Assembly (NCBI RefSeq): GCF_030684315.1
Contig: NC_081386.1
Location: 6,395,914 to 6,459,913, forward strand
DNA length: 64,000 nucleotides
Origin: Stegostoma tigrinum
Lineage: Eukaryota
Direction: 5' to 3'
Position numbers and translations under genes: made by a program. Below are positions 15,831-62,370 of the stretch, one piece after another. The notes below the pieces were generated by a model that saw only the letters and a program-made list of their open reading frames with translations, was not told where the DNA came from and did no database searches. Numbering within the stretch: position 1 is the first letter of the stretch; every line of letters begins with the position of its first letter.

Positions 15831-16055
15831 TTTTAATTTCTTTCCGACAAATCATAGGTTTATATTCAGGCCCCACTTATGGTTCTTACATTAGCATTGC
15901 CGCTCAGTACCCTTTGAACTGTACCTGAAGATGAATTATTGTAGAGAAGACAAGTAGAGAAAGAGGGAGTAAAGGAAGGGACCAAGTGTGGCTAACTCCC
16001 AGATACCACTGAGTCAAAAACAGGAAGATTCCAAAGCTACATCTGCAGCAATCAG

Positions 16056-17181
16056 AGATAATAGGAATTGCGGATGCTAGAGAATCCGAGATAACAAGGT
16101 GTAGAGCTGGATGAACACAGCAGGCCAAACAGCATCTTAGCAGCTGGAAAGCCAACATTTCAGGCCTCGACCCTTCATCAGAAATGGGGGTTGGGGAAGG
16201 AGCTTCTGAAATACATAGGGAGAAAGGGGAAGGCAGATAGAAGATGGATAGCGGAGAAGATAGGTGGAGAGGAGACAGTCAGGTCATTGAGGCGGGGATG
16301 GAGCCAGTAGAGGTGAGTGTAGGTGGGGAGGTAGGGAGGAGATAGGTCAATCCAGGGAGGATAGACAGGTCAAGGGGACGGGATGAGGTTAGTAGGTAGG
16401 AAATGGGGGTGCAGCTTGAGGTGGGAGGAAGAGATAGGTGAGGGGATGAACAGATTAGGGAGGTGGGGACGAGCTGGGCTGGTTTTGGGATGCAGTGGGG
16501 GAAGGGAGATTTTGAAACTTGTGAAATCCACATTGACACCATTGGGCTGCAGGGTTCCCAAGCGGAATATGAGTTGCTGTTCCTGCAACCTTCAGGTGGC
16601 ATGTTGTGGCACTGCAGGAGGCCCAGGATGGACATGTCGTCTGAGGAATGGAAGGGGGAGCTGAAATGGTTTGTGACTGGGAGGTGCAGTTGTTTAGTGT
16701 GAACCAAGCAGAGGTGTTCTGCAAAGTGGTCCCCAAGCCTCCGCTTGCTTTCCCCGATGTAGAGGAGGCCACAACTCAGGTGCAGCGGATGCAGTATACC
16801 ACATTGGCAGATGTCTGGGTGAACATCTGCTTGATGTGGAGAGTCTTCTTGGGGCCTGGGATGGGGGTGAGGGAGGAGGTGTGGGGGCAGATATAGCACT
16901 TCCTGCGGTTGCATGGAAAAGTGCCCAATGTGGTGGGGCTGGAGGGGAGTGTGGAGTGGACAAGCGAGTCACGGAAGGACTCCATCCCCGCCTCTTTGAC
17001 CTGTCTGTCTCCTCTCCACCTATCTTCTCCTCTATGCATCTGCCTCCCCCTCTTTCCTTATTTACTTCAGAATCCCCTTCCCCTCCCTATTTCTAATGAA
17101 GGGTCTAGGGCCAAAATGTCAGCTTTCCTGCTCCTATGACGCTGTTTGGCCTGCTGTGTTCAGCCAGCTCGACGCCTTGTT
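16056..17181 (-). mobile_element. Truncated Penelope-like retroelement with GIY-YIG remnant and inverted terminal repeat
   Basis: Minus frames give CNRRKCYICPH...NVVYCIRC and CGLLYIGESKRRLGDHFAEH...PVTNHF (PLE CCHH plus GIY-YIG). 16978-17181 is an inverted copy of the 3' end. 15-bp TSD atctgcagcaatcag at 16041-16055 and 17182-17196. Confidence 0.9.
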
Positions 17182-20819: not shown

Positions 20820-22020
20820 TGACCAAGCATGTGGATGAAGGTAGGCAGTTGACGTGGTGTACATGGACTTCAGTAAAGCCTTTGATAAGGTTCCATATGG
20901 TAGGCTATTGGAGAAAATAGGGAGGCACGGGATTGAGGGAGATTTAGCAGTTTGGATTAGAAACTGGCCTTCTGTAAGAAGGCAACGAGTGACAGTTGAT
21001 GGAAAATATTCAGCCTGGAGTCCGGTTACTAGTGGTGTGCCTCAAGGATCTGTTTTGGGACCACTGCTGTCTGTCATTTTTATAAATGACTTGGACGCAG
21101 GCATAGGTGAATGGATTAGTAGGTTTGCAGATGACACTAAAGTCGGTGGAGAGGTGGACAGTGTGGAAGAATGTTACACATTGCAGGGAGACTTGGATAA
21201 ACTGCAGAATTGGGCTGAAAGGTGGCAAATGGAGTTCAATGCGGATAAATGTGAGGTGATTCACTTTGGGAAGAATAATAGGAAGGCAGAACACTGGGTC
21301 AATGGAAAGATTCTTGGTAGTGTGGATGTGCAGAGGGATCTTGGTGTCCATGTACATAGATGCCTGAAAGTTGCCACCCAGGTTGATAGTGCTGTTAAGA
21401 AGCCTTACAGTGAGTTAGGTTTTATTGGTAGAGGAATTGAGTTCCGGAGCCGTGATGTTATGCTGCAACTGTACAAAACGCTAGAGCGGCCTCACTTGGA
21501 ATATTGCGTGCAGTTCTGGTTGCCCCATTACAGGAAGGATGTGGAAGCATTGGAAAAGGTGCAGAGGAGATTTATCAGGATGTTGCCTGGTCTGGAGCAA
21601 AGGCCTTATGAAGAAAGGCTGAGGGGCGTGGGTCTGTTCTCATTGAAGAGAAGATGGCTAAGAGGGGATTTAATAGAGACATACAAGATGATCAGAGGAT
21701 TAGATAGGATAGACAGTGAGAGTCTTTTTCCGAGGATGAAGATGTCAGCTTGTACAAGGGGGCATAGCTACAAATTGAGGGGGGATAGATTTAAGACAGA
21801 TATCAGAGGCAGGTTCTTTACTCAGAGAGTGGTAAGGGTGTGGAACGCCCTGCCTGCCAAAGTAGTTAACTCAGCCACATTAGGGGCATTTAAACAGTCC
21901 TTGGATAAGCAAATGGATGATGATGGTATAGTGCAGGGGGAGGGGCTTAGATTAGTTCACAGGTCGGTGAAACATTGAGGGCCAAAGGGTCTGTTCTGCA
22001 TTGTATTGTTCTATGTTCTA
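20820..22020 (+). mobile_element. Young 5'-truncated CR1 LINE with uninterrupted RT-to-end frame
   Basis: 374-aa ORF 20854-21978 with [59 protein letters not shown]; 3' tail (gttctat)n. Confidence 0.95.
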
Positions 22021-22245: not shown

Positions 22246-22868
22246 GCTCAGCTCCAAAAATAAGAGGGTAACACAAATGATACAAAAACGTTGAACAAGA
22301 TACTGTACAACCAAGGAAAAATAACTACCAAATCACAAAAGTAATGAAAAACAAAATCCCTTTGAAAATATGTTGAGACCTTCCTACTTTGCCACAGCTA
22401 CGTAACATCCTGCTTCATTTATTGTAATCAGTACAGAGAACAATTAGAGCAGCATAAGCTATAGATAAGTGATATTACATCTGCAAATGTTGCTTTAATT
22501 GTGAAGGAAATATTGATCCATTCCACAAAGGTGGCAGCAACTGACAAACCAGTCAACTGGTGAGAAATGAGAAACAATTATAAGCAGCCAGAAATTAAAC
22601 ATGAAACAAAAAGATGTTGAAGTCCTTTGACAGCTGAGCAGTAAGAAGACAGGTGACTATAAAATGTGGGGAACATTCAGTAAGTCAAGAAGGAACTATA
22701 AAGTGACTAAATACGCTAATGATTAGCGTGAATATTATTCTTATAAAGAGGTAACACTCAGGATGGTCTTCAACAAATGTTACCCAAACGTTTGAATAAT
22801 TTCATTGCTTCCTATTTCCTTTTTCATCATAAAACTTAAGTTATCCAAGCAAAAAAACTTAAAGAATG

Positions 22869-24021
22869 TGTAAGGCTGGATGAACACAGCAGGACAAGCA
22901 GCATCAGAGGAGCAGGAAGGCTGACGTTTCGGGCCCAGGCTCTTCTTCAAAAATGGGGGAGGGAAAGGTGGATCTGAAATAAATAGGGAGAGGGGGGAGG
23001 CGGATAGAAGATGGATAGAGGAGAAGATAGGTGGAGAGGAGACAGACAGGTCAAAGAGGTGGGGATGGAGCCAGTAAAGGTGAGTGTAGGTGGGGAGGTA
23101 GGAAGGAGATAGGTCTGCCCAGGGAGTACAGACAGGTCATGGGGGTGGGATGAGGTTAGTAGGTAGGAGATAGAGGTGTGACTTGAGGTGGGAGGAGGTG
23201 ATAGGTGGGAGGAAGATGCCGCCTCATTCTCCCATGAGGAGCTTGAACAGCTCATCCAATTCACCAACACCTTCCACTCCAACTTTAAGTTCACCTGGAC
23301 CATCTCTAATATCTCTTTTTCCTTCCTGGACCTCTGTTTCCATCTCTGGCACCCACCTAGAAACTGATATCCATTTCAAGCCTACCGACTCCCATAGCTA
23401 CCTAGGATACCCCTCCTCCCACCCACCTTCCTGCAAAAAAATGCCATCCCCTATTCCCAACTATTTCGCCTCTACCACATCTGCTCCCAGGATGAGGCAT
23501 TCCACTCCTGTACATCTCAGATGTCCTTGTTTTTCAAGGACCGCAACTTCATCCCCTCAGTGGTCAAGAACGCCCTCAACCGTGTTTCCCACATTTCCTG
23601 CAACTCATCCCTCACACCCATTCTCCACAATAACAACCAAAACAGAATCCCCCTCATCCTCACGTACCATCCCACCAATCTCCAGATCCAACGCATCATC
23701 CTCCGACACTTCTGCCATCTGCAATCCGACCCCACCAAAGACATTTTTTCCCGCCCCACCATTAGCTGCTTTCCGGAGGGACCACTCTCTCCATGACTTC
23801 TTTGTCTGCTCCACACTCCCCTCCAATCCCACCACACCTGTCACTTTTCCCTGCAACCGCAGGAAGTGAACACCCCCTCCCCCTCTCCCATTTCTGAAGA
23901 AGGATCTGGGCCTAAAACATCAACCTTCCTACTCCTCTGATGCTGCTTGGCCTGCTGTGTTCATCCAGCTCTACACCTTGTATCATAGATTCTCCAGCAT
24001 CTGTAGTTCCTACTATCTCTG
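22869..24021 (+). mobile_element. Truncated Penelope-like retroelement with RT C-terminal remnant and inverted terminal repeat
   Basis: Plus frames give FTNTFHSNFKFTW..SFLDL, TDIHFKPTDSHSYL..SSHPPSCK, RIPLILTYHP and CNRRK (PLE RT thumb/linker). Inverted end at 22869-23210. 14-bp TSD aaacttaaagaatg at 22855-22868 and 24022-24035. Confidence 0.9.
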
Positions 24022-24829
24022 AAACTTAAAGAATGGGTTGCTTTACTAGATAAAGAATGAATTGATACAGTACAATCTTCATAAGCAAGTCATGCAGAAT
24101 CTTTTATAAAAGGCAACACTGGCACCAATTAACATTAAGCAATTTATATTCTTCGGAATTTTTAAAGGGCCAGATCTTACCTCATTGATTTAGAGTTAAA
24201 ATCAGACCTTTACTTTCCAAGTTGCACCACCTTCTCATTCTTCATTTAGCTAAACATTTGACAGGAAGTTCATTTTTTTCCAATTACAAAACTATTCGAC
24301 ATACGTACTAATTTACTTCCTGTTTCGTCACCATCCTCAACTTACGTCAAACGCTAAATATGATAAATGCACTTCTTGTTCTAGATCTAAATTGTTTGTT
24401 CAAATGTGTCTCAGAATTACAGGATCACAGAATTATTACAGTGGAGGCGGTGATTGTTTGGGTCATCATGCGCGCATGGGTTCTATTATCTAGTACCAAC
24501 CTCCTGCCTTTTCCCTATATCCCTACACATCGTTGCTGTCCAAAAATACATCCACTGCTGTCTTAAATGCCCGAACTAAACTGCCTCAACCACATTTCGA
24601 GGGGGTGCATGCCGCACCCGAGCTACTCACTACATTAGAAAGGTCTGTTCTCACATTACCTTTGCTTGCTGTGTTTGAACATGATTTTAAATCTCTGCCC
24701 TCACACTCTAATTTCTTTTACAAGTATACAGTTTCAACCCATCTATTCTGTTCAGCTGCTCAAGATTTTGAAAATCTCTTCCAAAACTTCTCTTTGTCTC
24801 CTCTCTGGAGTGAACAGCCTCAAGTTCTT

Positions 24830-26010
24830 TGATAAGGTTCCCCATGGCAGGCTGATGGAGAAACTGAAGTCACATGGGGTCCAGGGTATGCTAGCTAGAT
24901 GGATAAAAAACTGGCTAGGCAACAGGACACAGAGAGTACTAGTAGAAGGGAGTTTCTCAAATTGGAGACCTGTAACCAGTGGTGTTCCACAGGGATCTGT
25001 GCTGGGACCACTGTTGTTTATGATATCTGTAAATGATTTGGAGGAAGGTGTACGTGGTCTGATCAGCAAGTTTGCAGATGACACTAAGATTGGTGGAGTA
25101 GCTGATAGTGAAGGGGACTGTCAGAGATTACAGCAGAATATAGATAGACTGGAGAGTTGGGCAGATAAATGGCAGATGGAGTTCAATCCGGGCAAATGCG
25201 AGGTGATGCATTTTGGACGATCAAACTCAAGGGCGAACTATACAGTAAATGGTAAAGTCCTAGGGAAAATTGACGAACAGAGAGATCCGGGTGTTCAGGT
25301 CCATTGTTCCCTGAAGGTGACAACACAGGTCAATAGGGTGGTCAAGAAGGCATATGGCATGCCTTTTCCTTCACTAGACGGGGTATTGAGTACAAGAGTT
25401 TGCAGGACATGTTGCGGTTGTATAGGACTTTGGTTCGGCCACGTTTGGAGTACTGTGTACAGTTCTGGTCGCCACATTACCAAAATGATGTGGATACTTT
25501 GGAGAGGGTGCAGAGAAGGTTCACCAGGATGTTGCCTGGTATGGAGGGTGCTAGCTATGAAGAGAGGTTGAGTAGATTAGGGTTATTTTCATTAGAAAGA
25601 CGGAGATTGAGGGTGACCTGATTGAGGTCTACAAAATCATGAGGGGTATAGAGTATAGACAGGGTGGATAGCAAAAAGCTTTTTCCCCCCAGAGTGGGGG
25701 ACTCAATTACTAGGGGTCATGAGTTCAAAGTGAGAGGAGGAAAGTTTAAGGGAGATATGCGTGGAAATTTCTTTACACAAGAGGGTGGTGGGTGCCTGGA
25801 ACGCGTTGCCAGCGGAGGTGGTAGACGCAGACACATTAGCGTCTTTTAAGATATGTTTGGACAGGTACATGGATGGGCAGGGAGGAAATGGACACAGACC
25901 GTAAGAAAATAGATGACAGGTTAGACAGAGGATCTTGATCGGCGCAGGCTTTGAGGGCCGAAGGGCCTGTTCCTGTGCTGTAATTTTCTTTGTTCTTTTG
26001 TTCTTTGTTC
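24830..26010 (+). mobile_element. 5'-truncated CR1 LINE inserted into an older antisense CR1
   Basis: [25 protein letters not shown] with later frameshifts; 3' tail (ttctttg)n. Flanks 24420-24825 and 26010-26120 read as decayed minus-strand CR1 (PHYREDVNAL..QRQFTRLV). Confidence 0.93.
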
Positions 26011-41004: not shown

Positions 41005-43122
41005 ACAATGGCAGGAGTTTCTGGGTGTAATTGAGGACACAGTACAGAGGTTCATCCCAAAGAAAAGAAAGATTATCCGGGGTGGGATTAGACAGCCATG
41101 GCTGACAAAGGAAGTCAGGAAATATATCAAAGAAAAAGAGACAGCCTATAAAGTGGCAAAGAGCACTGGGAAATCAGAAGATTGGGAAGGCTACAAAAAC
41201 AGACAGAGGATAACCAAGAGAGCAATAAGGAAGGAGAGGATCAAATATGAAGGTAGGCTAGCTAGTAATATTAGAAATGATAGTAAAAGCTTCTTTCAAG
41301 ACATAAGAAACAAACAAGAGGCAAAAGTAGATATTGGGCTGCTCCAAATTGATGCTGGAAGGCTAGTGATGGGAGATAAGGAAATAGCTGAAGAACTTAA
41401 TAAGTACTTTGTGTCAGTCTTCACAGTGGAAGACATGAGTAGTATGCCAACAATTAGGGAGAGTCAGGGGGCAGAGTTGAGTACGGTAGGCATTACAAAA
41501 GAGAAAGTGCTAGAAAAGCTAAAGGGTCTAAAAATTGATAAATCTCCTGGCCCCGATGGGCTACATCCTAGAGTTCTGAGGGAGGTGGCTGAGGAAATAA
41601 CGGAGGCTTTGGTCGTGATCTTTCAAAAGTCACCGGAGTCAGGGAAAGTCCCAGATGATTGGAAAATTGCTGTTGTAACTCCCTTGTTTAAGAAAGGATC
41701 AAGGCAAAAGATGGAACATTATAGGCCGATTAGCCTAAACTCGGTAGTTGATAAAATTCTAGAATCCATTGTCAAGGATGAGATTTCTAAATTCCTGGAA
41801 GTGCAGGGTCAGATTAAAACAAGTCAGCATGGTTTTAGTAAGGGAGGTCGTGCCTGACAAACCTGTTAGAATTCTTTGAAGAGGTAACAAGTATGTTAGA
41901 CCAGGGAAACCCAGTAGATGTTATCGATCTAGACTTCCAAAAGGCCTTTGATACAGTGCCTCACGGGAGGCTGCTGAGCAAGGTGAGGGCCCATGGTGTT
42001 CGAGGTGAGCTACTGGCTTCGATTGAGGATTGGCTGTCTGACAGCAGGCAGAGAGTTGGGGTAAAAGGCTCTTTTTTGGAATGGCAACCGGTGACGAGTG
42101 GTGTCCCGCAGGGTTCAGTGTTGGGGCCGCAGCTGTTCACCTTATATATTAATGATTTGGATGAAGGGACTGGGGGCATTCTGGCGAAGTTTGCCGATGA
42201 TACAAAGATAGGTGGACAGGCAGAGAGTACTGAGGAGGTGGGGAAGCTGCAGAAAGATTTCGACAGTTTAGGAGAGTGGTCCAGGAAATGACTGATGAAA
42301 TTCAATGTGAGTAAATGTGAGGTTTTGCATTTTGGAAAAAAGAATACAGGCATGGACTATTTTCTAAATGGTGAGAAAATTCGCAAATCAGAAGTGCAAA
42401 GGGATCTGGGAGTGTTGGTCCAGGATTCTCTACAAGTTAACTTGAAGGTCGAGTCCGTAATTAAGAAAGCGAATGTAATGTCGTCGTTTATCTCAAGAGG
42501 GTTGGAATATAAAAGTAGCAACGTGCTTCTGAGGCTTTATAAGGCTCTAGTTAGGCCCCATTTAGAATACTGTGTCCAATTTTGGGCCCCACACCTCAGG
42601 AAGGACATATTAGCCCTGGAGCGTGTCCAGCGGAGATTCACACGGATGATCCCTGGGATGGTAGGTTTAACGTACGATGAATGGCTAAGGATCCTGGGAT
42701 TCTACTCATTAGAGTTTAGAAGGTTGAGGGGAGATCTAATTGAAACTTACATGATAATGTATGGTTTAGAAGGGGTGGACGCTCAGAAGTTGTTTCCGTT
42801 AGGCGGGGAGACTAGGACCCGTGGGCACAGCCTTAAAATTAGAGGGGGTAAATTTAAAACGGAAATGAGATGACATTTCTTCAGCCAGAGAGTGGTGGGC
42901 TTGTGGAATTCATTGCCGCAGAGTGCAGTGGAGGCTGGGGCGTTGGATGCCTTCAAGGCAGAGATCGACAAATTCTTGATCTCAGAAGGAATCAAGGGCT
43001 ACGGGGAGAGTGCAGGGAAGTGGTGTTGAAATGCCCATCAGCCATGATTTAAATGGCGGAGTGGACTTGATGGGCCGAATGGCCTTACTTCCACTCCTAT
43101 GTCTTATGGTCTTATGGTCTTA
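41005..43122 (+). mobile_element. Young 5'-truncated CR1 LINE (2.1 kb)
   Basis: Three consecutive ORF pieces (41153-41857, 41893-42291, 42295-42873) with [43 protein letters not shown]. One frameshift near 41845 and two TGA stops. Tail (cttatggt)n. Confidence 0.95.
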
Positions 43123-48349: not shown

Positions 48350-48559
48350 CTGCAAAAAGAAAAACATGCTTATACAATGCAAAATTGAATCAACTGAAAG
48401 TTGCTTTTGGCAAAGTGCCACACTAGAGGACTTTCTACCCAAAAGAAGTCTGGAATTTGTGGTAGCAATTGAACTGGATTGAGAACTGACTGCAAGGACA
48501 TGGACAGAAAATGTGAAAGAAGGATTGAACTTTCCTTCGAAAGCAGTCATCAGAAATTA

Positions 48560-50012
48560 TGTTAGCTTTGTTGCTTCTTACTATTTTGTTAATGATCTGC
48601 ATGTAAGTATGGGGGACACAATATTAAAATTTGCAGATAATATTAAGATCGATGTGTATGTTAAGACTGTAAATAATGCTTGACTGCTTTAAATAGGCCT
48701 GGATGTGTTGAGAGATTGAGTTTGCAATGTTTAATTTCAAAAACTGCAGGCATATATACATTTGGACAGGATGAATGTTCAATATAATCTTGAAAGAAAA
48801 ACTCAAGAACTTGGAGAGACAATGTGAAATGGGTGTTTGAACACATGGATCTGTAAAGTCGTTTATTTAAACAGGCAAAGCGGTAGCCAGAATGAATAGG
48901 TGTTGGGTGCGCTTATAGTGCAATTGAGTACAAAAGGAAACATACTGTCTTGTTCTTACAAAACATCTTGGTCAGGCCTTAGTTGGAATACCATGTCCAG
49001 TCACAATGTGGAAAAAGGGCAGAGGAGCATTAGTAGATTAATAAGTAAACTTTAATCCAGGAATTAAGATAGTCCAATACAGCTAAGGCTTAATACTTTA
49101 CAGCAGCATTAATCTAGAGGCATTTGATTTAAGGTTAATATGATGATAAAAGTAATAGATTGTCTCAGAGTTGAAATTGCTCAAATTAGGTTAGCTTGTG
49201 TAAGGCCAGATGTAGGTTAGATAGCATAAGGTGGCTTGTTTCCAAAGAATAGCAAACGAATAGAACCAGCTGCTGGTTTGTGCAACAGATGCTGATTTGC
49301 TCAATTCCCACAGGTGGGAGCTGGACTTGTTTCTGGTTCAAGTGGAAATCACCTCGTAAAAAAACATTAGGCACTTCATAGAATTCTGGACTTCGGTTAC
49401 CTGCTACCTAGTTTTGATTACTTCAGGGATGGAGGAAGGGATTATTTCCAAAAAATTGTTCTGGATTTTTATCTGGCATTCCGGAGCACCTGGGAGTTCA
49501 CAAGTGGTGGAGTGAGACTGTATTTTGTAGTACACAAGGTAAATCAATTGTGCTGGTCAGGCTGGGTGGACCAAGGATGACTTTTCTAGCCCACCACTGC
49601 ACTCATGCCTGCAAATATACTAGAGTTTTCAACTTACTACAAAATTAGGAGAGGTGTGTCAAAAAAAATGGAAAAAAATGATTTTGATGATCCAAATAAA
49701 CAGAACCAGTGACACAGGAATTGGTTAAATGGAAGGTATGGATTTAAGGCGACTGGCAAAGGAACCAGAAACAAAATGAGGAAGCTTTTCATTGAGACAC
49801 CAAGTTATCGTGATCTGGAGTGTATTGCCTGAAAATGGTGGTAGAAGCAGAATCAATAGTAACCTTAATCAGAGAATGGCATAAATGTTTAAAGGTTTAA
49901 AAAAAAAGGACAGTGGGGAAAGAGAAGGGAAGTGGAATTACTTAGGTAGCTCTATCAAGTATGATGGGCCAAATGGCCTGCTTCTATGTTGTATCATTCT
50001 ATGATTCTATGA
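48560..50012 (+). mobile_element. Cluster of decayed CR1 RT and 3' fragments
   Basis: LKFADNIK, ggtcaggccttagttggaatac, and a 3' end gggccaaatggcctg..attctatgattctatg. Confidence 0.6.
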
Positions 50013-53000
50013 GTAGTGGTGGCCAAACATTCCAATAATGAGTGCACTGAGAAATGTCACAATGGACACAGACCTGGATTTCATACATCACTTACAATTT
50101 TTCAGACGGCCTGTGGAACTTACCCTGCAGGAGCTAAACAAATGCAGGTGACACAACCACACAGATTTCTATTTGTTCCTAATAGAAGTGTAGTGTCATA
50201 ACACCACAAGCATCAGTGAAACAGTACTTACCACCACAGCCCATGTGTTATGCTTGAAATTCTTTGAGTTCTATCCAAAACCCAGTGCCACTAATCACAG
50301 ATTTCCACAGTGAAGTTCCAAATTTCAACGCTGAAAGTATGTTTGGCTCTGTTATTTGGCCTCACGTGCACATCACCTGATTTTTTTCTCAAAGCAATGC
50401 GATCCAGTTGATGTGGGGAAGAGTGGGAATGCAATCTGCTCTCCAGCACTTCAGCAGCTACTCTCAGCATTTTAAAAACGTCTCACTTCATAAGAAGTGC
50501 ACTTCCATCCGGACAGCTTTAGTTTCTGGCAACTTCAGTGCAGACAATGCCAGCTGAGGCTCAGCTCCCAAATCCTTCACTTCCACAGCTGAAAGAAAGT
50601 TGGGTGAGGGCCGCATCTCTGGCATTATTTGCAATCTCAGCTGACACAAACCGCTAATCCATCTTGTTTAGTTACAGACATAGACAATAACATGACTTTC
50701 AGTAAAAATAGGCAAATTTGTGAATGTTTGAACTGAAAGCGTTGCAAAGAACTATATACTGAAATTAATCAACATCTCCAGAATACATAAAAAACATTAG
50801 ATGTGAAGAAGACTGATGTTCATCTGACTCTCAATCTGCTTGGAAATTGTGTGTGATGAAAGAGTTGTTGATTAACAAGAGCAGTTAATCTCCATTGATT
50901 AATTTAGGAACAAGTAATTACACTGGCAGAGTGGAAAGCTTTGGAAGCTATAGATTCAAGATCATCTGCCACTCCTAAGTACACACACTTATCAAATGAC
51001 ATATCCTAAATTATTGTATCTCAATATCTTTTCTGAAAATATTCAAACCATCATTTGGAAGAATTACACTACTGGCTGCCTAAAGAATTGTTCCATAGGT
51101 CTACTCACTCACTGAAATGATGTACTACAGTTTTGAAATTAGGCTCTGAAAGTGCATACCACATCCTTTAGCTTTTTTACCTATGGACAGCGAAACAGAT
51201 TGTCATGATTTATTTTACTCAGACTTTTTTGAACATCAGTCACATCACCTTTGATTTCTGGTCAGAACATGCCCAACTTTCTTAATCATTCTTTTTAACC
51301 CAATCCCTCAGCCTCTTCATTTAATCTGATTACTCTCTGCTGTGCCTTTCAATAGCTATAATATCTTTTCCAGTGCTGTGGCAACTAGAACTGTGTACAA
51401 GATTCCAAATGTGCTTGCATCAATGATTTATATAGCAGTGACATTACATCACCACTTCTCCACGTGACATTCTAAATACATCCCAAAATCATACCTAATG
51501 AGAGTTTCTATTTATGGTCAATCAAGTCCTCACCATCCTCTCACTTTCCATTCACGTTATTTTCTTTCCATTTAAAATGATACTTGGATACCTGGCTAGC
51601 AATTAGCTAATCCCTTGAGGCTAAAACTCTGAACTACAGCTCAAATCATTATTCATGATCATCTCCAGTACACGGTTATTTTGGTAAATATGCTTAGTTT
51701 AGTTCCAGCTGCTTTCTGTTCTCCAGCAGTGTCACATTAAGTAGAATTTTGTAAATTTTATTGGCTTCATAAACCTACCTATTACAATTGTTTAAATGGC
51801 TAGAAATAATACACCAACAATTTATAGTACCCCCATGGAGAATTTAAGGGTCCTTTTACTTTATTATGTTGCTTTGGTGGCAATACCTTTTTAGGTGCTC
51901 CATTTACTATACATGAAGCAATGCTTCTGCTGCATGTGGAGCAGTGCAGATATGCTTCATGTTCCTCCAGAAACAACAATAGCCAATAGAAAGATTCCCA
52001 CAAGCAGTCTTGGCAACCAGTTCTCTCTAGTATGTGAGCAGACTATCCTTAGGCACGAATATCAAAATTTGCACAATTGTCACTGCTGTGCTGTACAATC
52101 TGCAATGTCAACGTATGGTGGGAAAAGATTAGGCAACACTAAGTGGTCAGTTCCCTCCGGTGTTTTGCACACCCAAGAGACATCCTAATCTGTGGCTACT
52201 GTCTACTTGTGCAGAAGCAGTCTAAGCTCAGCAATTGCAGTGAATCCTTTCGGGAAGAGTGTGTACGCTCTATATGGAACAAACAGAAATTCTAGCTCGT
52301 CTTGGTCACTGATGAGCACTTAACAGCATTAAGTTGACTAGTCACTGGTCGTAGACACTTGGGAGGGTTTGGCTGCTATTGACTCCCAAACATATAAGTT
52401 GAGAAATGTGGATCTCTTAAATTCAGCCTATTTTAGATACATGATGCTCATCAAATAATTTTAAGTATTGGTCTGGCATAATTTAAACCAATGAATACTG
52501 GAAAGAATAAGTTAATCTATACATTGAAATAATATTACCTTTGAGCATTTAAATGTTTAAGGGGTTGCTGCTAAAAGCATTAAAGTGTAATCATAAGACA
52601 AGCTTGCTTTATTTTAAACAGAGGTAGTGGTAAATAATAGCTAGCTTAGACAGTAAACCTAATTAAAAGACAATCCAGCTAGACAGCTTTAATTAGTAAC
52701 AAGTTATTGCAGTCTTAGAACAAGTCGAGAAGCTTTCTTTATTCACTCAAGCCCTGAAAGATAAAAGTCAAGGTGTGACTGGAAGTCAAGAAGTGTAACA
52801 AACTGAGGAGTTACAGGTGTGTGTGTTGCTGATTGGGACAATAAAAACATGTTGAATGATAACCATTTGTTAGGTGATTTAATTGTATATACAAACTGCT
52901 ATTTACAAGAGTGGAAAAGGGAATAAATTTTGGGTGGTGGAGTGGATACTTTTGAAGGTCTGGCCCACCACGCACACAGATTCAGAACTCTGAGGTACAT

Positions 53001-54410
53001 TGACTTTCCAACTAAAGTCTGTAACATTTGTTGAAGTATTACTAATTATTGTTAATCAGTTATTATTGGATGTTAATGATTGTGAATACCTGACAATCAA
53101 TGCTGAGAACCCCACTACTGTTGAGTTAAGACTTGTAAGTATGAATACCCATCCTCAAATAATGTAATGAGACATGTGGTCATTATCCTGGGAGTATGTT
53201 ACCAATTATATCCAACTGAGGTATCTTTTGGGAAATAGTTTCTTTAATACATCGTAGGTCATTGGCTGTTAGGAGACACAAGTATTATAGAAAATGGTAG
53301 TCATGAAGTGAACGAAGATGGTATAATACGAAAATGAGCAAGGTGACTTACAAAGTAACATAAACATATTCGTTACTTGTCTGTACAGTTCTCGAGTGAA
53401 ATTTAATTGCAGATAACTACAAAGTACTTCACACAGAAATAAACTTGGGGTAAGGAATTATTGCTTGAATGAAAATAAAATGATGAGCCTAGAAACTCAA
53501 TATAATCTTGTAGCCTTAATTAACAATAAACAGAAGCTATCACAAAACACAGCAGGGAACATGTAAAGCAAATTAGCTGTTCTGGTGTATTTAAAAGGTC
53601 AGTTTAAACCAAAATAGTGAGATAATCCTGCCAATTTATATGTTATTGTTGTGACCACGTTCAGAATTCTGCATATAACTCTGATTTAGGAGTGCAAAAA
53701 ATATATTACTGCTATTAAAAAACTACAGAAGACAGCAAACAAAACAATTGACGGTGTGGAGAATATTGAGAAAGAATGGTTAAGGGCAAATTTAATGCAA
53801 ATAAGACATTATGTCCATGATAACCTATTTAACTACTTCCAAGGGAGAAGAACCAGATGACACGAGGTGCACTTGGAACAGGCATGGGACAGATTAAAAA
53901 CTTGCAGAAAACAAAGGGTGAACTTTTTTTTAGGTCAGGTGGCTTGTCACACCCACTGCCAATGAAAAGCTGGCACTAAGCCACAGGCCAATCAGAAGCC
54001 AAACCCCAACCATAAAGCATTATGGGAGCTATCTGATGATCAGATTAAACAGCAATGTTAAAGCTCAGTCATGGGTGCTGCTGGGTCTGCAGGCAGGGTC
54101 ATTAAGCACGGGCCGAAACCTGTATCCAGATAAATCTGGGTTGAGCTGGGTTTTTTTGACAAATTGGGAAAGGGAGAAAGGGTTGGAAATTTAAAAGTTA
54201 TGTGGGTGACAAGGGATGAGGATAAGTGGTATGTTTCTAGGAGTTCCCTTGATAGGCAAGAGAGAATTGCCAACGGTAGCACCATCCAGCACCACCCCCC
54301 CCCCAATCTTCTGATGGTTTTAAGCACTTTTCTAAAAAAAAACTGTGATTTGCACTCTTGCCTGACTATCCACGTGGTGTAATACTGGGGTCAACTGAGA
54401 TTTTAACAAG

Positions 54411-54582
54411 AGAGTAGGAACCTCAGATGGTGGAGAATCTGAGATAACAAGGTGTACAGCTGGATGAGCACAGCAGGCCAAGCAGCATCAGAGGAGCAGG
54501 AAAGCTGATGTTTCAGACCTAGACCTTTCTTCATTTCATGCTGCTTGGCCTGCTGTGTTCATCCAGCTCTACACCTTATTAT
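54411..54582. mobile_element. Short fold-back PLE-end element (family A)
   Basis: Inverted arms of the same family. 16-bp TSD ctgagattttaacaag at 54395-54410 and 54583-54598. Confidence 0.85.
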
Positions 54583-55285
54583 CTGAGATTTTAACAAGGT
54601 CAATTAACAGCACCTGTACAATTGTAGAATTATGGGGGGGTGTGCTCAAGAGCAGGTGTGAACATGGAGGCCACATGACCTAAATCACATACCACATGGC
54701 CTAAAACACAGCCTGAGGGCCACATAATATCCAGTCCAATATTTCAGACAGTGATGATATAATGAAGCTGTGTCCTAGGTGGAAACAGCAAGTATGGTAC
54801 ATTCTGAAGGAAATTAAACAGACTGCTTTCAGAAAATATTTTGGTATGTAATTTGAGACATGACATATTGTAAATATAACATTTACATGGAACAGATTTT
54901 TTTTTTAAGATAGCAAGACACAGGAACAGAAGTAGGCCATTTGAGCTACCAAATCTGCTCCACCGTTCAATTGAGATCATGGTTGGTGTTATAATCCTCA
55001 ACTCTACTTTCCTGCCTTTCTTCCATAACCTGTCTCTATTCTTCTGAGGTCCCATTGTGTCACCCTGATCACTTGCCTTCCCACCAATTTTTATGTTATC
55101 AGTAAATTTGGTTGAAACACATTCATTTTTCTTATCCAAGACATTGGTATTTATGGTAAATATTAGTGATCCCAATCATTAATTACAGGTTTCCGTCCTG
55201 CCAATGTCTCTCTTAACCCAAGATAATAAAATGTGAGGCTGGATGAACGCAGCAGGCCCAGCAGCATCTCAGGAGCACAAAAGCT

Positions 55286-55313
55286 GACGTTTCGGGCCTA
55301 GACCCTTCATCAG
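55286..55313 (-). ncRNA. Minimal hammerhead ribozyme motif, copy 1 (inside fold-back arm)
   Basis: Minus strand CTGATGA-AGGGTCTAGGCCC-GAAA-CG-TC. Conserved core boxes, stem II GGGU/GCCC, vestigial stem III typical of PLE hammerheads. Confidence 0.68.
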
Positions 55314-55463
55314 AGGGTCTAGGCCCAAAACGTCAGCTTTTGTGCTCCTGAGATGCTGCTGGGCCTGCTGTGTTCATCCAGCCTCACATTTTATTATAAG
55401 ATAATAAAATGTGAGGCTGGATGAACACAGCAGGCCAAGCAGCATCTCAGGAGCACAAAAGCT

Positions 55464-55491
55464 GACGTTTCGGGCCTAGACCCTTCATCAG
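55464..55491 (-). ncRNA. Minimal hammerhead ribozyme motif, copy 2
   Basis: Identical core CTGATGAAGGGTCTAGGCCCGAAACGTC, flanked by CT...AG (short stem I). Confidence 0.72.
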
Positions 55492-55637
55492 AGAGGGGGA
55501 TGGGGGGAGGGAACTGGAATAAATAGGGAGAGAGGGGGAGGCGGACCGAAGATGGAGAGTAAAGAAGATAGGTGGAGAAGGTGTGGGTGGGGAGTTGAAC
55601 ACAGCAGGCCAAGCAGCATCTCAGGAGCACAAAAGCT

Positions 55638-55665
55638 GACGTTTCGGGCCTAGACCCTTCATCAG
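55638..55665 (-). ncRNA. Minimal hammerhead ribozyme motif, copy 3
   Basis: Identical core CTGATGAAGGGTCTAGGCCCGAAACGTC, 174 nt from copy 2. Confidence 0.72.
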
Positions 55666-55826
55666 AGAGCAGTTCCCATTATCTCTGATCACATTTTATT
55701 ATCTTGGATTCTCCAGCATCTGCAGTTCCCATTATCACTCTCTCTTAACCCAACTCTGTTTTCTACTAGTTACCCAATCTTTGATCCATACTAATAATAG
55801 ATAAAACCAAACAGCTTACTTCTGTG

Positions 55827-55976
55827 ATAACAAGGTGTAGAGCTGGATGAACACTGCAGGCCAAGCAGCAAGTCTAGGCCAGAGGCGTCAGCTCTCCTGC
55901 TCGGCTTGCTGCGTTCATCCAGCTCTACACCTTGTTACCTCAGATTCTCCAGCATCTGCAGTTCCTGCTATCTCTG
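55827..55976. mobile_element. Short fold-back PLE-end element (family A)
   Basis: Arms ataacaaggtgtagagctggatgaac and gttcatccagctctacaccttgtta, plus tail. 18-bp TSD with 1 mismatch at 55809-55826 and 55977-55994. Confidence 0.82.
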
Positions 55977-56388
55977 AAACAGCTTTCTTCTGTGTTAACA
56001 TGTAGTGGGCTTTTCCTGAAAGTTACAAACCCCACAGGATGGCACAATTTCAAGCAATAGCGGTTTCATTTTGTATACAATGAGGCTATGTAAATTCACT
56101 TTTGATTAACTGTTTGAGTGATCTTGAACTGATTCTTATGCACATAACCTTTCCTCTTGTTTATATCCACTGTATTTGTAATCCACATATACCTTTTAAG
56201 GAAGTCCGGTTACAAAGGCTGTGAACAGCAGTAGTGGCAGGATTAAAGAGGATAAAAACATTAATTAAGCTGCAAACCATCTTCGTCCAGAGCTACAGCA
56301 AACTGTCTGATGCCTGCAGTACTTTGGAAATATACCTGATCTGTCCTAAACATTGCACAATTTAATTTCAGCACAACTCAATTAAATG

Positions 56389-56432
56389 TGCTTGACCTGC
56401 TGCGTTCATCCAGTTCTACACCTTGTTATCTC
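56389..56432 (+). repeat. Fragment of family A PLE end
   Basis: gcttgacctgctgcgttcatccagttctacaccttgttatctca matches the family A arm. Confidence 0.65.
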
Positions 56433-57509
56433 AAATAAAATTAAAGCTGGCATACTTCAACACATGCGGTCCTCATTATTGGCTCCCTGGAGCTCCTCCA
56501 TTAAAGAAGACTATGGGTGGAACCTGTACTTTGTAGCACTGGGAATACTGGTGAATGAACATAACATTTTCTAAGAGAAGCAGGAAGAAAAGTTTCTGAG
56601 TAAGATTTAAGGGGGAGGTGTCTACACTTTTCTTCTGTGTGCTTAAGTATGATTGTTGCAACATTACAATGGGGTGACAGAGGAACTGTCAGGGTGACAA
56701 TCTCTTTTGATTGAGTGTGAATAGCAAAATCTTTGTTTGGTGGTTTTACAGGAGAGAAGCGAAATGGGAGAAATAGGATTTGTGAATAACCTGTTGAATA
56801 CAGCCAATTAGAAGAAATAGCATATCAGCAACTTAAAAGAATTTTTTTTAAACACTATCGATTTAATGGGCATACTTTGTCTTTAAAATGCAGCTAAATT
56901 AATTCTAAGAAATAAACATTAAAATAGAGTAGTAATGAAACGAAACATACTTATCCCCAGGTGCAACTATAGTCAGTACATCCCTATCCTGATTGTAAGG
57001 GTGCATTAACCTTGTGGTACTGATTACGTGTAAATTCCATTGAATTTGGATCTTTATAGTCAGATGCTTAATGACCGAGTTAGGATTTTGCTGCGAAATA
57101 CAAGCCAAGAGAAACATGCTGGCACATAACCACCTCTATTATAGCAGGACAAACATTAGCTAAAAAGGTTGAGGTAGGAAGATTATTCACCTACTGAGTA
57201 TAACAACCCTGAAAATAAGTCAAATTAGGGCTGCGACCAGCAAAAATTGATGCTTTTTCAGCAAGTGATCCAGGGATAGCCTCAAAAATGGACCAATATA
57301 GCACCGACAGACTGTGTTTGCTGTATCAGAGAACATTCGCATCCAAAACAATGTAGAACAACAAGAACTTCTCTAGAAGATATATGAAAACAGAGAAACA
57401 CAAACTCAGAGCAGAATCAGCTGTGTATTGCACAGACCTCTACAAAGACATGGAAAATATGGTGTCCAAAATGTACAGCACAAAAAAAATGACAGCTACT
57501 GAAGTACTT

Positions 57510-57722
57510 CACCTAGCTCTGTTGACTGAATGGTTGGTTTGCAATTCAGATTGACGCCAACAATCCCGGTTCAATTTCTGCACTGGTTGAAGTTACCATG
57601 AAAGACTCCTTCTCAACCTATCCCCTCGTCTGAGGTATGGTGACCCTCAGATTAAACTACCACCAGTCGTTTCTCTTTCTCATGAGTGAGTAGCCCTTAT
57701 GGGCTGGTAAGATGACTTTACT
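57510..57722 (+). mobile_element. Old tRNA-derived SINE (family not assigned)
   Basis: B-box-like ggttcaatttc; body ctgaggtatggtgaccctcagattaaactaccaccagtcg..ctct..atga. A matching fragment lies at about 9412-9495. Confidence 0.6.
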
Positions 57723-57834
57723 TCATATGGATCAAACAGGGATCAAGTTATTTTGCATCTAGTAAAGAGTAACAAGGTTAGTTTAATAAATGAGCTCAGA
57801 ATAAAAGATCCCCTTAGGCAACAATGGTAACATG

Positions 57835-58016
57835 AACAAAAACAGAAGTTGCTGGAAAAGCTCAGCAGGTCTGGCAACATCTGTGAAGAGAAATCAGCGT
57901 TTATATTTTGGGTCCGGAGATCCTTCCTCACAACCTGCCAGACTTGTTGAGCTTTTCCAGCAACTTCTGTTTGTTTCTGATTTACATTATCCATAGTTCT
58001 TTTGGTTTTTATTTAG
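57835..58016. mobile_element. Short fold-back PLE-end element (family B)
   Basis: Arms acagaagttgctggaaaagctcagcaggtctggca and tgccagacttgttgagcttttccagcaacttctgt. 10-bp TSD tggtaacatg at 57825-57834 and 58017-58026. Confidence 0.8.
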
Positions 58017-58029
58017 TGGTAACATGGTA

Positions 58030-59590
58030 GAATTTAGCATTCAATTTGAGAGTGAGAAACCTGGGTCAAAAACAACTGTACTTGACTTAGATAAGGGTAA
58101 CTGCAAAGAAAAGAGAGCAGAGTTGGCTTAAGTGGACTGGGAAAGGAGTTTAGCAGAAAAGGCAATTGGATAATTGCATATATTTAGGAAATTAGTTAAT
58201 GATTCGCAACAAAGACATTTCCCAGTGAGGAAGAAGAATTCCAGGAAGCGGACCAACCTTGCTTAACCAAGTAAGTTAAAAATCATATCCAATTGAAAAA
58301 GATGCACACTATTAAGAAGATTAGTGCAGAGCGACAGAATTGGGAAAGTTTTAAAAAACATTAAAACAATTTAAAAAAAGGAGAAAATAACCCTTGAGGC
58401 TAAACTAGCAAATAATATGAAAATGGACTATCAGAGCTTTCTTGAATACATAAAAGAGAGAAGCTGAAGTGAACATAGGCTCCCTTAGAGAATGAAACTG
58501 ACGAAATAATAATATGGAACCAGGAAAAGGCAGAAAAACTGAATAAATACTTTAAATAAGTCATGACATAATATTCGAAAAATACTAAATAATCAAAGGA
58601 CAAAAAGGTGAAGAGGAAATAAATACAATAATTGTAGTAAGGAAAAAAAGTACGTGGAAAACTAATGGAGTTAAAGGCTGATAGGTGCCCTGGAGCTGAT
58701 GCCATTAAGAGAATATTAAAGGATGCACTGTTAGTAATCTTCCAAAAAAATCCTTAGATTCTAGAAAAGACCCAGAGGATTAGAAAACTACCAATGTAAC
58801 ACCTTTAATTGAATACAGGAAGGGGTTAAAAACAGTTAACAATAGGCCAATTAGCTTAACATCTATCATTTGGAAAATGCTGGAGTTTATTATGAAGGAT
58901 GTAATAGCAATACATTTAGAAGTACATAATACTACCAAGTAGACCTATCATGGCTTCACAAAGGAGAAATTATGCTGGACAAATGTATTTGCATCGTTTG
59001 AGGATGCAACAAGCAGGATAAAGGGCAGCCAATAGTTTTAGTATACTCAGATTTCCAAAAAGCATTTGTTAAGATACCACACCTAAGGCAACTTAATAAG
59101 GCAATGGTTTTTGGGGTAATATATTAGCATACATAGAGCACTGACTTACTAAAAGACAAAGTTGGGATAGGAAGACATTTTCAGGATGGCAACCCATAGC
59201 CTACAACATAAAAATCAGTGCAAGGCTCACAACTTGGGGAGGTAAGTGAATTGACAGGGTAGATGTGGAGAAGCTGCTCCCCTTATGGGTGAGTGTAGGA
59301 CCTGTGGGCACAATCTCAGTTAGGGCTTTCCAATTTTGACAGAGATGAGGAGGAATCTGTTCTTTCACACTGTAGTGAATTGGTGGAATTCTTCACCCCA
59401 GAGGGCTGTCAAGATTGGTTCATTAAGTATATATAAGGTTGAGACAGATTTTTAATCAGTCAGGGAATCAAAGGTTATGGGCAAAAGACAGAGAAGTAAA
59501 GTAGAGTTGAGGATTATCAGATCAGCCACAATCTTTTTGAATGCTGGAGCTGACTTGATGGGCTGAATGGCCTATTTCTACTCTTATGTT
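58030..59590 (+). mobile_element. Old CR1 LINE fragments
   Basis: Remnants of LKADRCPG, RPISLTSIIWKMLE and DFQKAF, plus a CR1 3' end (ggctgaatggcctatttctactc). Confidence 0.78.
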
Positions 59591-59599
59591 TTGAATTAT

Positions 59600-60890
59600 A
59601 GAGTCAAACAGCATGGCAACAGACCTTTGGTCCAACTCGTCCATGCTGACCCGAGTTTCCCAAACTTAACTTGTCCCATTTTTCTGCATTTGGCCCAAAT
59701 CCCTCTGAACCTTTCCTATTCACATACCCAACTAAATGTCTTTTAAATGTTGTAACTATGCCTGCATTTACCACTTCCTCTAGCAGTTTGCTCCATATAT
59801 GCTCCACCCTCTGTGTGAAAATGTTGCCCTTTAAGTGCCCTTTTAAATCTTTCTCCTCTCACCTTAAAATTATGCCCTCTAGTTTTGAACTCCCGTATCC
59901 TTATATATGCCCTTCGTGATATTATAAATTTCTATAAGGTCACTGCTCAACCTTTTATCCAATGAAAAAAGCCCCAGACTATCCAGCCTTTCCTTATAAC
60001 TATCCTTCAGTGACTAATGAACAAGGACACTTTCCAATTTCTCAACACATAAGAGATACTCTGCACCTTCATTTGTCCTTCCAAACTTGATAGTCTTACA
60101 CTTACCCACATTATATTCCATATACCATGCTCTTACTTCACATGTCATTCAGCCGATCTAAAACCTCTTGAAGCTTCTTTGCATCCTCCTCACGAGTCAC
60201 ATTCCCCACCAAGATTTGTGTCATTCTGAAAATTGGTCCCCACATCCAAATAATTTATATAGATTGTGAATGGCTGTGACCAAGCAGTTGTGGTTAAAAC
60301 TGAAAGAACTGAGGATGCTGTAGATCAGAAACAAAAACAGAAGCTGCTGGAAAAGCTCAGCAGGTCTGGCAGCATCTGTGCAGAAACTAAGAGTTAACAT
60401 TTCGGGTTGAGGGGCCCTTTCTCAAAACTGACCCTTGTGGTACTCGACAATTTAATAGCCTGTCATCTTGAGAAAGATCCATTTATTCTTACGCTATCCT
60501 TTCTAACTATGAATCAATCCATTTTAGCACGTTGCTCCCAATTCTTTCCATTTTAGTTTTATATTGTAAACTGTGTGGCACTTTACCTAAAGCCTTCTGA
60601 AATCCAAATAAATCAGACAGGTGTGCAAGGTTCTCCCCTATCAACAAAGTTACTAACATGTTCAAAATCTCTAAATGGTTTGTCAAACTAATTTCACATT
60701 CATTAATCTCTGTTGATTCCACCCCAAAACTCAATTGTTTTCTAGATATCCTTAATAATAGATTACAGTATCATTCCCCACTAATGAATCAGGCCAACAG
60801 ATGTACAGTTCAAGATTTTGTCTCTGCCTCATTTCTTATGCAGTGGAGTCACACTTGCAACCATCCGATTTTCAGGCACTACAACATGGT
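59600..60890 (-). mobile_element. Minus-strand CR1 fragments (3' end plus older RT piece)
   Basis: Minus frames IWSKLLEEVVNAGIVTTFKRHL and FQKALGKVPH; interrupted by a family B PLE end. Confidence 0.75.
60293..60430 (-). mobile_element. Family B PLE-end fragment inserted in an old CR1
   Basis: gaaagaactgaggatgctgtagatcagaaacaaaaacagaagctgctggaaaagctcagcaggtctggcagcatctgtg...gttaacatttcggg. Confidence 0.72.
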
Positions 60891-60923
60891 CTCAGTAGGC
60901 TGTTATACCCAGCTCACTCTAAC

Positions 60924-61124: not shown

Positions 61125-62370
61125 ACAAAGGTGCAAAGAAAATTATAGCACGGTAACAGGCCCATCGGCCCTCCAAGCCGGCACCGATCCAGATTCTCTA
61201 TCTAAACCTGTTGCCTATTTTCCAAGGATCTGAATCCCTCTGCTCTCTGCATCCTTCTGCTCTCTGCCCATGCATCTGTCTAGATACATCTTAAATGGCA
61301 CTATCATGCCCACCTCTACCACCTCCGCTGGCAACGCGTTCAGGCACCCACCACCCTCTGCATAAAGAACTTTCCACGCATATCTCCCTTAAACTTTTCC
61401 CCTCTCACCTTGAAATCATGACCGCTCGTAACTGAGTCCCCCACCGTGGGGGAAAAAACTTCTTGCTATCCACCCTGTCTATACCTCTCATGATTTTGTA
61501 GACCTCAATCAGGTTCCCCCCTCAACCCCTGTCTTTCTAATGTAGATAATCCTAATCTACTCAATTTCTCTTCATAGCTAGCGCCCTCCATACCAGTCGA
61601 CATCCTATGAACCTCCTCTGCACCCTCGCCAAAGCATTCACATCCTTTTGGTAACGTGGCAACCAGAACTGTACGCAATATTCCAAATGTGGTCGAACCA
61701 AAGTCCTATACTACTGTAAAATGACCTGCCAACTCTTGTACTCAACAGCCCGTCTGATAAATGAAAGCATGTCTAATGCCTTCTTGACCACTCTATCAAC
61801 CTGTGTTGCCACCTTCAGGGTACAATGGACCCGTATACTCAGAATTCTCTGGGCATCAATTTTCCCCAGGGCTTTTCCAATTATTGTATAGTTCGCTCTT
61901 GAATTGGATCTTCCAAAATGCATCATCTCGCATTTGCAAACTCCATCTGCCATTTCACCACCCAACTCTGCAATCTATCTATATTCTGGTGCATTCTCCT
62001 GACAGTCCCTTCATTATCTCCTACTCCACCAATCTCAGTGTCATCTGCAAACTTGCTATTCAGACCATCTATACTTTCCTCCAAATCATTTATGTATATC
62101 ACAAGCAACAGTGGTCCCAACACGGATCCCTGTGGAACACTACTGGTCACAGTTCTCCATTTTGAGAAACTCCCTTCCACTACAACCATCTGTCTCCTGT
62201 TGTCCAGCCAGTTCTCTATCCATCTAGCTAGTGCACCCTGGACCCCACGCGACTTCACTTTCTCCATCAATCTACCATGGGAGCCTTATCAAATGCCTCA
62301 CTGAAGTCCATGTATATGACATCTACAGCCCTTCCCTCATCTATCACCTTTACCTCTTTCTCAAAGAATT
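61125..62370 (-). mobile_element. 5'-truncated CR1 LINE, same subfamily as 24830-26010
   Basis: Minus frame [44 protein letters not shown]; same 3' UTR (gatcggtgccggctt..gggcctgtt..gtgctataattttctttg). Confidence 0.92.

What the first reader, a model, noticed from the sequence alone, without database searches (positions are those of the whole stretch)
55222..55738. Three intact minimal hammerhead ribozymes, 174-178 nt apart, in the sense of the EFL1 pre-mRNA (retrozyme-like cassette)
Seen: a young insertion with a perfect 15-bp TSD holds three identical minus-strand copies of CUGAUGA-AGGGUCUAGGCCC-GAAA-CG-UC, at 55638-55665, 55464-55491 and 55286-55313. The minus strand is the EFL1 transcribed strand. 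Established: Penelope-like elements carry minimal type I hammerheads with almost no stem III that cleave as dimers, and animal non-LTR retrozymes are tandem hammerhead repeats of a few hundred nt or less that yield small linear or circular RNAs. Inference: copies 2 and 3 could dimerise in cis through the palindromic ACGU, cut the intron co-transcriptionally and release a 174-nt monomer. Copy 1 sits in an ~85-bp fold-back whose antisense arm could also pair with copies 2 and 3 and switch them off. Weak point: stem I looks only about 2 bp (CU/AG).
Basis: partly seen in the sequence, partly recalled or inferred. Interest (0 to 1): 0.8.

Follow-up and report, generated by a model that had tools for sequence, protein, structure and literature searches.

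The report
Nested Penelope transposon ends with hammerheads
The three ribozyme motifs are real, but they are the ends of one very common jumping gene that landed inside an older copy of itself, not a purpose-built self-cutting cassette; the many other copies in this genome hint that this ribozyme sometimes does cut its RNA in living cells.

Summary
The three motifs, their spacing and the 15-bp duplication are as described. They are minimal hammerheads from the terminal repeat of a Neptune-type Penelope-like retrotransposon. The exact 28-mer occurs 92,176 times in this genome, equally on both strands. The locus is not a tandem repeat but two nested insertions. An outer two-armed stub (copy 1, 15-bp TSD) was hit by a different subfamily (copies 2 and 3, own 14-bp TSD). 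The same self-insertion shows its duplication at 12 of 18 loci with this junction. The 174-nt unit's junction is unique, so this is not a retrozyme. The antisense arm pairs with copy 2, not copy 1, and stem I has 2 bp: intron cutting is unlikely. By-product: genome-wide, cDNA ends pile up 4 nt upstream of the core (probable capped start) and again exactly at the predicted cut (about 800 fold-backs versus 20-100 at four other palindromes). That may record cleavage in vivo, an open question. The scan noted such two-armed stubs before in two other genomes.

The parts
55207..55221 (.). Left copy of the 15-bp target-site duplication of the outer insertion; its last 4 nt also match the element (+93 to +96), a likely priming microhomology
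   Evidence: (D13)
55222..55315 (-). Outer insertion, arm 1: element end from +92 back to -1 (C of CUGAUGA = +1); subfamily X
55286..55313 (-). Hammerhead copy 1 (outer insertion)
55314..55397 (+). Outer insertion, arm 2, first part (+8 to +91); lacks CUGAUGA and has GAAA changed to AAAA at 55327; antisense to the three copies in the pre-mRNA; subfamily X
55384..55397 (.). Left copy of the 14-bp target-site duplication of the inner insertion (a stretch of the outer element itself)
55398..55594 (-). Inner insertion, arm 1 (+94 back to -102), 100% identical to locus L022; subfamily Y
55464..55491 (-). Hammerhead copy 2 (inner insertion)
55596..55669 (-). Inner insertion, restarted piece (+70 back to -3) after a template jump; junction unique in the genome
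55638..55665 (-). Hammerhead copy 3 (inner insertion)
55669..55689 (+). Inner insertion, arm 2: short piece of the 'tail' (+111 to +131), subfamily Y
55689..55702 (.). Right copy of the 14-bp inner target-site duplication
55703..55738 (+). Outer insertion, arm 2 resumed: the 'tail', subfamily X
55739..55753 (.). Right copy of the 15-bp outer target-site duplication
   Evidence: D13
48350..60923 (-). Host EFL1 intron (GT..AG) that holds the insertion

Best explanation
The stretch is debris of a very active Neptune-type Penelope-like retrotransposon (PLE) whose terminal repeat carries a minimal hammerhead. Shown: the family's full-length form is inverted arm + repeat + 1073-aa RT/GIY-YIG ORF + repeat; most insertions are two inverted arms, one beginning near +92 and one near +128, inside a 14-15-bp duplication. 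Inferred: the enzyme nicks both strands 14-15 bp apart and each nick primes reverse transcription at one of two internal start sites. When it starts on the 5' repeat the cDNA runs off the RNA end just upstream of the hammerhead and leaves a stub of about 220 bp. Here such a stub (subfamily X) landed in the intron; later a subfamily-Y copy inserted in the stub's own AT-rich end, and its first arm jumped back and recopied the hammerhead. Three same-strand motifs result by accident. In the pre-mRNA they are probably silent: stem I has 2 bp and an 84-bp hairpin captures copy 2.
For: 92,176 exact motifs, control 0. Full-length layout in L055 with hammerheads at 1917(-), 2404 and 6016 around the ORF; RVT_1 and GIY-YIG hits below Pfam cut-off; DKG, YIDD, CX4CxxC linker and CxxC inside GIY-YIG read from the sequence. 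Every piece of the insertion maps to the element end at 98-100%. 40 of 47 two-armed insertions have one short and one tail end; duplications of 13-17 bp in 31 of 47, none found in 8. Base +55 and tail type are linked (36 + 4 concordant, 3 discordant of 43; p = 6e-4); the outer pieces here are all X, the inner all Y. 18 loci share the junction; 12 of 18 show tail + duplicated 14-mer, and in the 9 where the outer tail resumes its type matches the outer arm. Fits PMC11167929 (both strands cut and extended, two internal RT starts bounding the tail, cuts in its own repeat) and PMC8557442, PMC3846280 (inverted copy, tail).
Against: 6 of 18 junction loci did not show tail + duplicate: one is not nested (L069), one has the duplicate without a tail (L081), four had no far end found in the DNA held. 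No read or contig shown spans the three inner junctions, so they rest on the assembly. Silence in the pre-mRNA is a model result only: the energy model ignores tertiary contacts and protein help, and I had no active hammerhead dimer as a control. After the arm binds copy 2, copies 3 and 1 are still free to pair. Clade rests on motifs, not on a tree.
Confidence: 0.9

Rival explanations
1. Retrozyme-like cassette: copies 3 and 2 dimerise, cut the intron and release a 174-nt RNA that can circularise and spread.
For: Three intact same-strand cores; no other same-strand pair within 400 nt among 132 distinct intact cores in the fetched DNA, and 1 such pair among the first 100 places. Dimers and trimers of a minimal PLE hammerhead showed low but detectable cleavage (PMC4209133). 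A 2026 preprint derives animal retrozymes from PLE terminal repeats (10.64898/2026.07.22.740005), so such a locus could be raw material.
Against: Unit junction unique; spacers unrelated; retrozymes as defined in PMC7229834 are tandem repeats with canonical hammerheads (6-bp helix I per PMC4209133), here stem I is 2 bp (third pair U-C in 129 of 158). Hammerhead fold is not the minimum-energy fold, arm sequesters copy 2. In the preprint 8 of 9 predicted dimers did not cleave.
Confidence: 0.05
2. Accidental origin as in the best explanation, but with residual activity: copies 3 and 1 (or 3 and 2 before the arm is made) cut a small share of EFL1 pre-mRNAs, perhaps helped by the element's own protein.
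For: All three cores are intact with the same 2-bp stem I as the active family. The lizard PLE hammerhead cleaves when its protein is added (PMC11167929). Genomic ends at +29 suggest the family's ribozyme can cut.
Against: Constrained dimer folds cost 41-46 kcal/mol against the free ensemble (no positive control). The piece holding copy 3 stops at +70 and lacks the downstream region where RT starts. One motif per 35 kb means most long introns carry such motifs and tolerate them (inference).
Confidence: 0.12
3. The triplication is an assembly artefact.
For: No listed contig spans the stretch or its inner junctions.
Against: Both outer junctions are crossed by exact contigs in runs X1 and X2 (these may be the assembly's own sample). 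Two exact nested duplications and consistent subfamily marks are not what misassembly makes, and the same nesting recurs at 11 other loci.
Confidence: 0.02

Closest known systems
EN+ Penelope-like elements, Neptune/Nematis type (PMC8557442; PMC3846280)
   Same: RT then C-terminal GIY-YIG with CxxC, extra CX4CxxC linker, pseudo-LTRs with a hammerhead, inverted 5'-truncated copy, 30-40-bp tail at one end, insertion into earlier copies.
   Different: Duplication length is tight (14-15 bp) and a fixed self-target site recurs; stubs of about 220 bp are a main product. I found no paper naming this family in the held library.
Minimal hammerheads of metazoan PLEs (Cervera and de la Pena 2014, PMC4209133)
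   Same: CUGANGA core, extra base before stem II, G10.1-C11.1, palindromic 15.2-16.2, no loop III.
   Different: Stem I is 2 bp (their trematode motifs 4-5 bp; D. virilis 2 bp), stem II 4 bp; 92,176 exact copies of one motif against 4,000-9,000 reported there for coelacanth and frog.
Poseidon element PAc of Anolis (Frangieh et al. 2024, PMC11167929)
   Same: Two internal RT start sites bounding the tail, both strands cut and extended, AT-rich cuts in its own repeat, mostly uncleaved RNA as template.
   Different: Here the ORF starts at +167, not inside the hammerhead; junctions often show short microhomology; a share of genomic ends falls at the cut site, whereas they found no RNA reads ending there.
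Animal non-LTR retrozymes (PMC7229834; preprint 10.64898/2026.07.22.740005)
   Same: Type I hammerheads a few hundred nt or less apart, PLE-related.
   Different: No repeated unit, no amplification of the unit, minimal rather than canonical ribozyme, long antisense arm.

Membership tests
EN+ Penelope-like element | Single ORF with RT and C-terminal GIY-YIG in the parent family | tested here: met
   L055 ORF of 1073 aa: RVT_1 E 4.7e-05, GIY-YIG E 0.004, both below Pfam cut-off; motifs read
EN+ Penelope-like element | Pseudo-LTRs flanking the ORF, carrying a hammerhead | tested here: met
   L055 motifs at 2404 and 6016
EN+ Penelope-like element | Inverted 5'-truncated copy and 30-40-bp tail at one end | tested here: met
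   40 of 47 two-armed insertions; both nested insertions here
Neptune/Nematis clades | [quoted passage not shown] | tested here: met
   CX4CxxC upstream of GIY-YIG (definition in PMC8557442)
Neptune/Nematis clades | Placement in an RT phylogeny | not testable with these tools
   No reference PLE set on hand
Minimal type I hammerhead | Core boxes, extra base 5' of stem II, stem II, palindromic stem III | tested here: met
   variation among 210 copies falls at U7, loop II, a U-G to U-A change and CpGs
Minimal type I hammerhead | Stem I | tested here: inconclusive
   2 bp only; a second family in the genome swaps the first pair from U-A to A-U and keeps pairing (6 of 158 hits)
Minimal type I hammerhead | Self-cleavage | not testable with these tools
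   Indirect genomic hint only
Non-LTR retrozyme | Head-to-tail repeats of one unit, each with a hammerhead | tested here: not met
   Spacers differ in origin and sequence
Non-LTR retrozyme | The unit is amplified as a family | tested here: not met
   Junction found once in 3.2 Gb
Non-LTR retrozyme | Canonical hammerhead with 6-bp helix I | tested here: not met
   2-bp stem I
Non-LTR retrozyme | Monomeric linear or circular RNA in cells | not testable with these tools
   No RNA run was laid

The most novel reading that the evidence does not exclude
The roughly hundred thousand copies of this element are a fossil record of the RNA ends its reverse transcriptase ran off. Most stubs end 4 nt upstream of the catalytic core with an extra non-templated C (a copied cap), so the transcript starts right at the ribozyme; a minority, of the order of a tenth to a quarter as many, end exactly at the predicted cut. 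A hammerhead with only a 2-bp stem I would then cleave in the germ line, removing the capped first 32 nt, and cleaved RNAs would still be inserted: in vivo evidence that the papers I read say is lacking for PLE hammerheads.
Probability: 0.45. Interest if true: 0.6.

Novelty: new member of a known kind. Interest (0 to 1): 0.3.

Why it matters
The locus itself matters little: it shows how ordinary Penelope insertions can mimic a retrozyme, and would be a false positive for tandem-hammerhead screens. It is a clean example of an element inserting at a fixed site in its own end (17 such junctions against about 1-2 expected under uniform targeting, rough estimate), a route by which tandem hammerheads could arise. 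The wider value is the family: what PLE hammerheads do in vivo is open (PMC4209133, PMC8557442, PMC11167929), and junction counts in this genome give a computable test and exact sites for an experiment.

Tried and rejected
Rfam scan of the window: no match. Genome-wide count of same-strand pairs 159-189 nt apart could not be run; replaced by the first 100 places and by fetched loci. Sequencing runs: no RNA holder listed, so expression is untested. Laying contigs (4 of 23 listed runs): swamped by the repeat; no joint across the empty site among the rows shown; one contig of organism C stops matching at 55221, the end of the left duplication, with 37 letters left over, which fits an empty site but was not shown to resume. 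Stem covariation within the main family is thin (one-sided changes only). My unselected sample of 80 arms was too small to show the +29 peak (3 of 80 in +28 to +33, against 17 of 80 in -4 to +3). An intron between hammerhead and ORF: acceptor-like sequence before the ATG in L055 but no clear donor; dropped. Poseidon clade (my first guess): dropped on the linker motif. The first nested-map script gave an empty map and the first linkage count found nothing; both were redone. Lunse et al. 2017 could not be read. Supplements of PMC4209133 (alignments of fish hammerheads) were not opened and may already list this motif; preprint supplements were not seen.

Full report
Observation. The three minus-strand motifs, the 174- and 178-nt spacings, the 15-bp duplication and the 84-bp inverted arm are all in the sequence. 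The host is EFL1 on the minus strand: an exon ending at 60924 and one starting at 48349 have GT and AG ends, join in frame and match EFG_III weakly and EFL1 strongly. Rfam gives nothing at gathering score. Positions below count from the C of CUGAUGA as +1; the predicted cut follows +28.

What the motif belongs to. The exact 28-mer occurs 45,976 + 46,200 times in the 3.2-Gb genome, control 0: about 1.8 per 64-kb window. All 30 loci read share the sequence downstream of the motif, 29 of them to an end near +90 or +128. Upstream many run into an RT and GIY-YIG frame. A protein search had 89,498 candidates, 150 scored, with open frames up to 1127 aa. Of 14 long ones fetched, L055 shows the full layout: inverted arm, repeat with hammerhead, 1073-aa ORF, repeat with hammerhead. 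The CX4CxxC linker puts it with Neptune/Nematis by the definition in PMC8557442 (introduction read, other passages seen). That the host is a shark is my recollection of this repeat and the wording of two earlier scan notes on other genomes; I did not test it.

How copies are built. Among 47 two-armed insertions of at least 90% identity, 40 have one end near +92 and one near +128, 2 short-short, 1 tail-tail, 4 other; a duplication of 13-17 bp was found in 31, shorter or longer in 8, none in 8 (the sample is biased to loci picked by motif). This is the inverted copy plus tail of PMC8557442 and PMC3846280 (passages), and matches the two internal RT starts and two-strand cutting of PMC11167929 (abstract, main text and part of the methods read).

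Anatomy of this locus. All pieces map to the element end: +92 to -1 inverted (55222-55315), +8 to +91 forward (55314-55397), +94 to -102 inverted (55398-55594), +70 to -3 inverted (55596-55669), +111 to +131 forward (55669-55689), then +78 to the tail end forward (55689-55738). A 14-mer at 55384-55397 recurs at 55689-55702. Removing what lies between restores an ordinary stub. Base +55 and tail type mark two subfamilies (36 and 4 concordant, 3 discordant); the outer pieces carry one set, the inner the other. The left junction occurs at 18 loci. Twelve of 18 show an inner tail followed by the duplicated 14-mer; in all 9 where the outer tail resumes, its type matches the outer arm; 16 of the 17 nested loci show the Y mark on the inner arm, one is too short to tell; one locus is not nested, one has the duplicate without tail, four had no far end found. 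A rough uniform-target expectation is 0.7-2.3 (assumed copy numbers). So 178 nt is the length of the outer stub's two arms, and 174 nt comes from one template jump whose junction is unique.

Would it cut the intron? Stem I is 2 bp in all three copies; the third position is unpaired in most family members. Single copies do not fold as hammerheads at minimum energy, and z-scores are not significant. In transcription order the antisense arm follows copy 2 and pairs with it (81.7 pairs against 0.8 with copy 1). Forced dimer folds cost 41-68 kcal/mol in the full RNA or the prefix before the arm; the model lacks tertiary contacts and I had no positive control, so this is weak. PMC4209133 (results and discussion read) reports no activity for a monomer and low activity for dimers; the 2026 preprint (abstract, methods, results, discussion read) found 1 of 9 predicted dimers active. 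Copies 3 and 1 stay free and could pair. No RNA data were laid.

Is the motif a real hammerhead? The descriptor finds 158 hits and 0 in reversed DNA; a second family keeps the core with a different 6-bp stem II and an A-U first pair in stem I. Changes among 210 copies fall mostly at U7, loop II, CpGs and a U-G to U-A pair.

By-product: where cDNA arms end. In 80 unselected arms, 17 end at -4 to +3, 12 at +4 to +13, 4 at +14 to +27, 3 at +28 to +33. Equal-sized fold-back patterns give 7,933 loci near 0, 959 near +21, 992 near +32, 2,528 near +45 and 148 near +62. Of the first 50 loci, 40 fold exactly at AGCT (+29 to +32) and 2 at ACGT (+24 to +27); the scripts used 41, a miscount that changes nothing. 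Scaled up: about 800 at the cut site against about 40, 100 (CTAG, 5 of 50), 40-80 (GGCC +16, 2-4 of 50) and 20-30 (GGCC +56, 7-11 of 50) at other 4-nt palindromes (hand counts on the first rows listed, chiefly contig C1). For all junction types, ends at +29 outnumber ends at +27 about 3-fold (17-18 of 100 rows of 7,512 against 18-19 of 100 of 2,123). At -3 the next base is a non-templated C in 17 of 27 junctions to unrelated DNA (p = 3e-5), as for a copied cap (cap copying is recalled from other retroelements). At +29 it is 0 of 6 clear cases, or 2 of 8 with two ambiguous rows; the p = 0.007 used 0 of 7 and does not hold with the ambiguous rows. Rivals: a second start at the CA of +28/+29, an RT stall at the 3' edge of a folded dimer, or special ease of AGCT annealing. 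The larger count near +45 can be read as trimmed +29 ends or as an independent hot zone. Searches for such an analysis in print found nothing; subscription papers, including Lunse et al. 2017 (seen only as cited in PMC6765202, passages), were not searchable. PMC7229834 was seen as passages.

Verdict. An ordinary product of a known class, fully explained by nesting and a template jump; not a retrozyme. Interest 0.3, mostly for the recurrent self-target site and the possible record of cleavage in vivo.

Noticed in passing
genome-wide: Arm ends pile up at -3 with an extra C and again at the predicted cut site +29; possible capped start and cleaved-RNA templates.
   Followed up: partly
L066-L083: Seventeen nested insertions at the same base of the element's own end, nearly all by one subfamily, with the same 14-bp duplication.
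   Followed up: yes
fetched loci: A second minimal-hammerhead family with a 6-bp stem II and a 3-bp stem I; its parent element was not identified.
   Followed up: no
window 54395-54598, 55809-55995, 56389-56436: Three older, more diverged insertions of the same or a sister family within 1.2 kb of the finding, the first with a 16-bp duplication: a local cluster.
   Followed up: partly
window 2385-2577, 5299-5392, 16054-17168, 22865-24020: Further remnants of this element, some with RT-thumb or GIY-YIG frames.
   Followed up: partly
L055 2407-2448 and 2535-2572: The AUG inside the hammerhead core opens a 13-codon frame upstream of the main ORF; cleavage would cut it off. An acceptor-like sequence precedes the main ATG.
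   Followed up: no
L055 ORF residues about 240-280 (other loci): A variable tandem peptide repeat (TADGTPP) N-terminal of the RT, with different copy numbers between elements.
   Followed up: no
L030 and rows: Some junctions continue with antisense sequence starting about +200, inside the ORF start: perhaps a third RT start site.
   Followed up: no
window 20845-21978, 24639-25571, 41006-42873, 61788-62304: LINE-type RT remnants (RVT_1 hit for the first).
   Followed up: no
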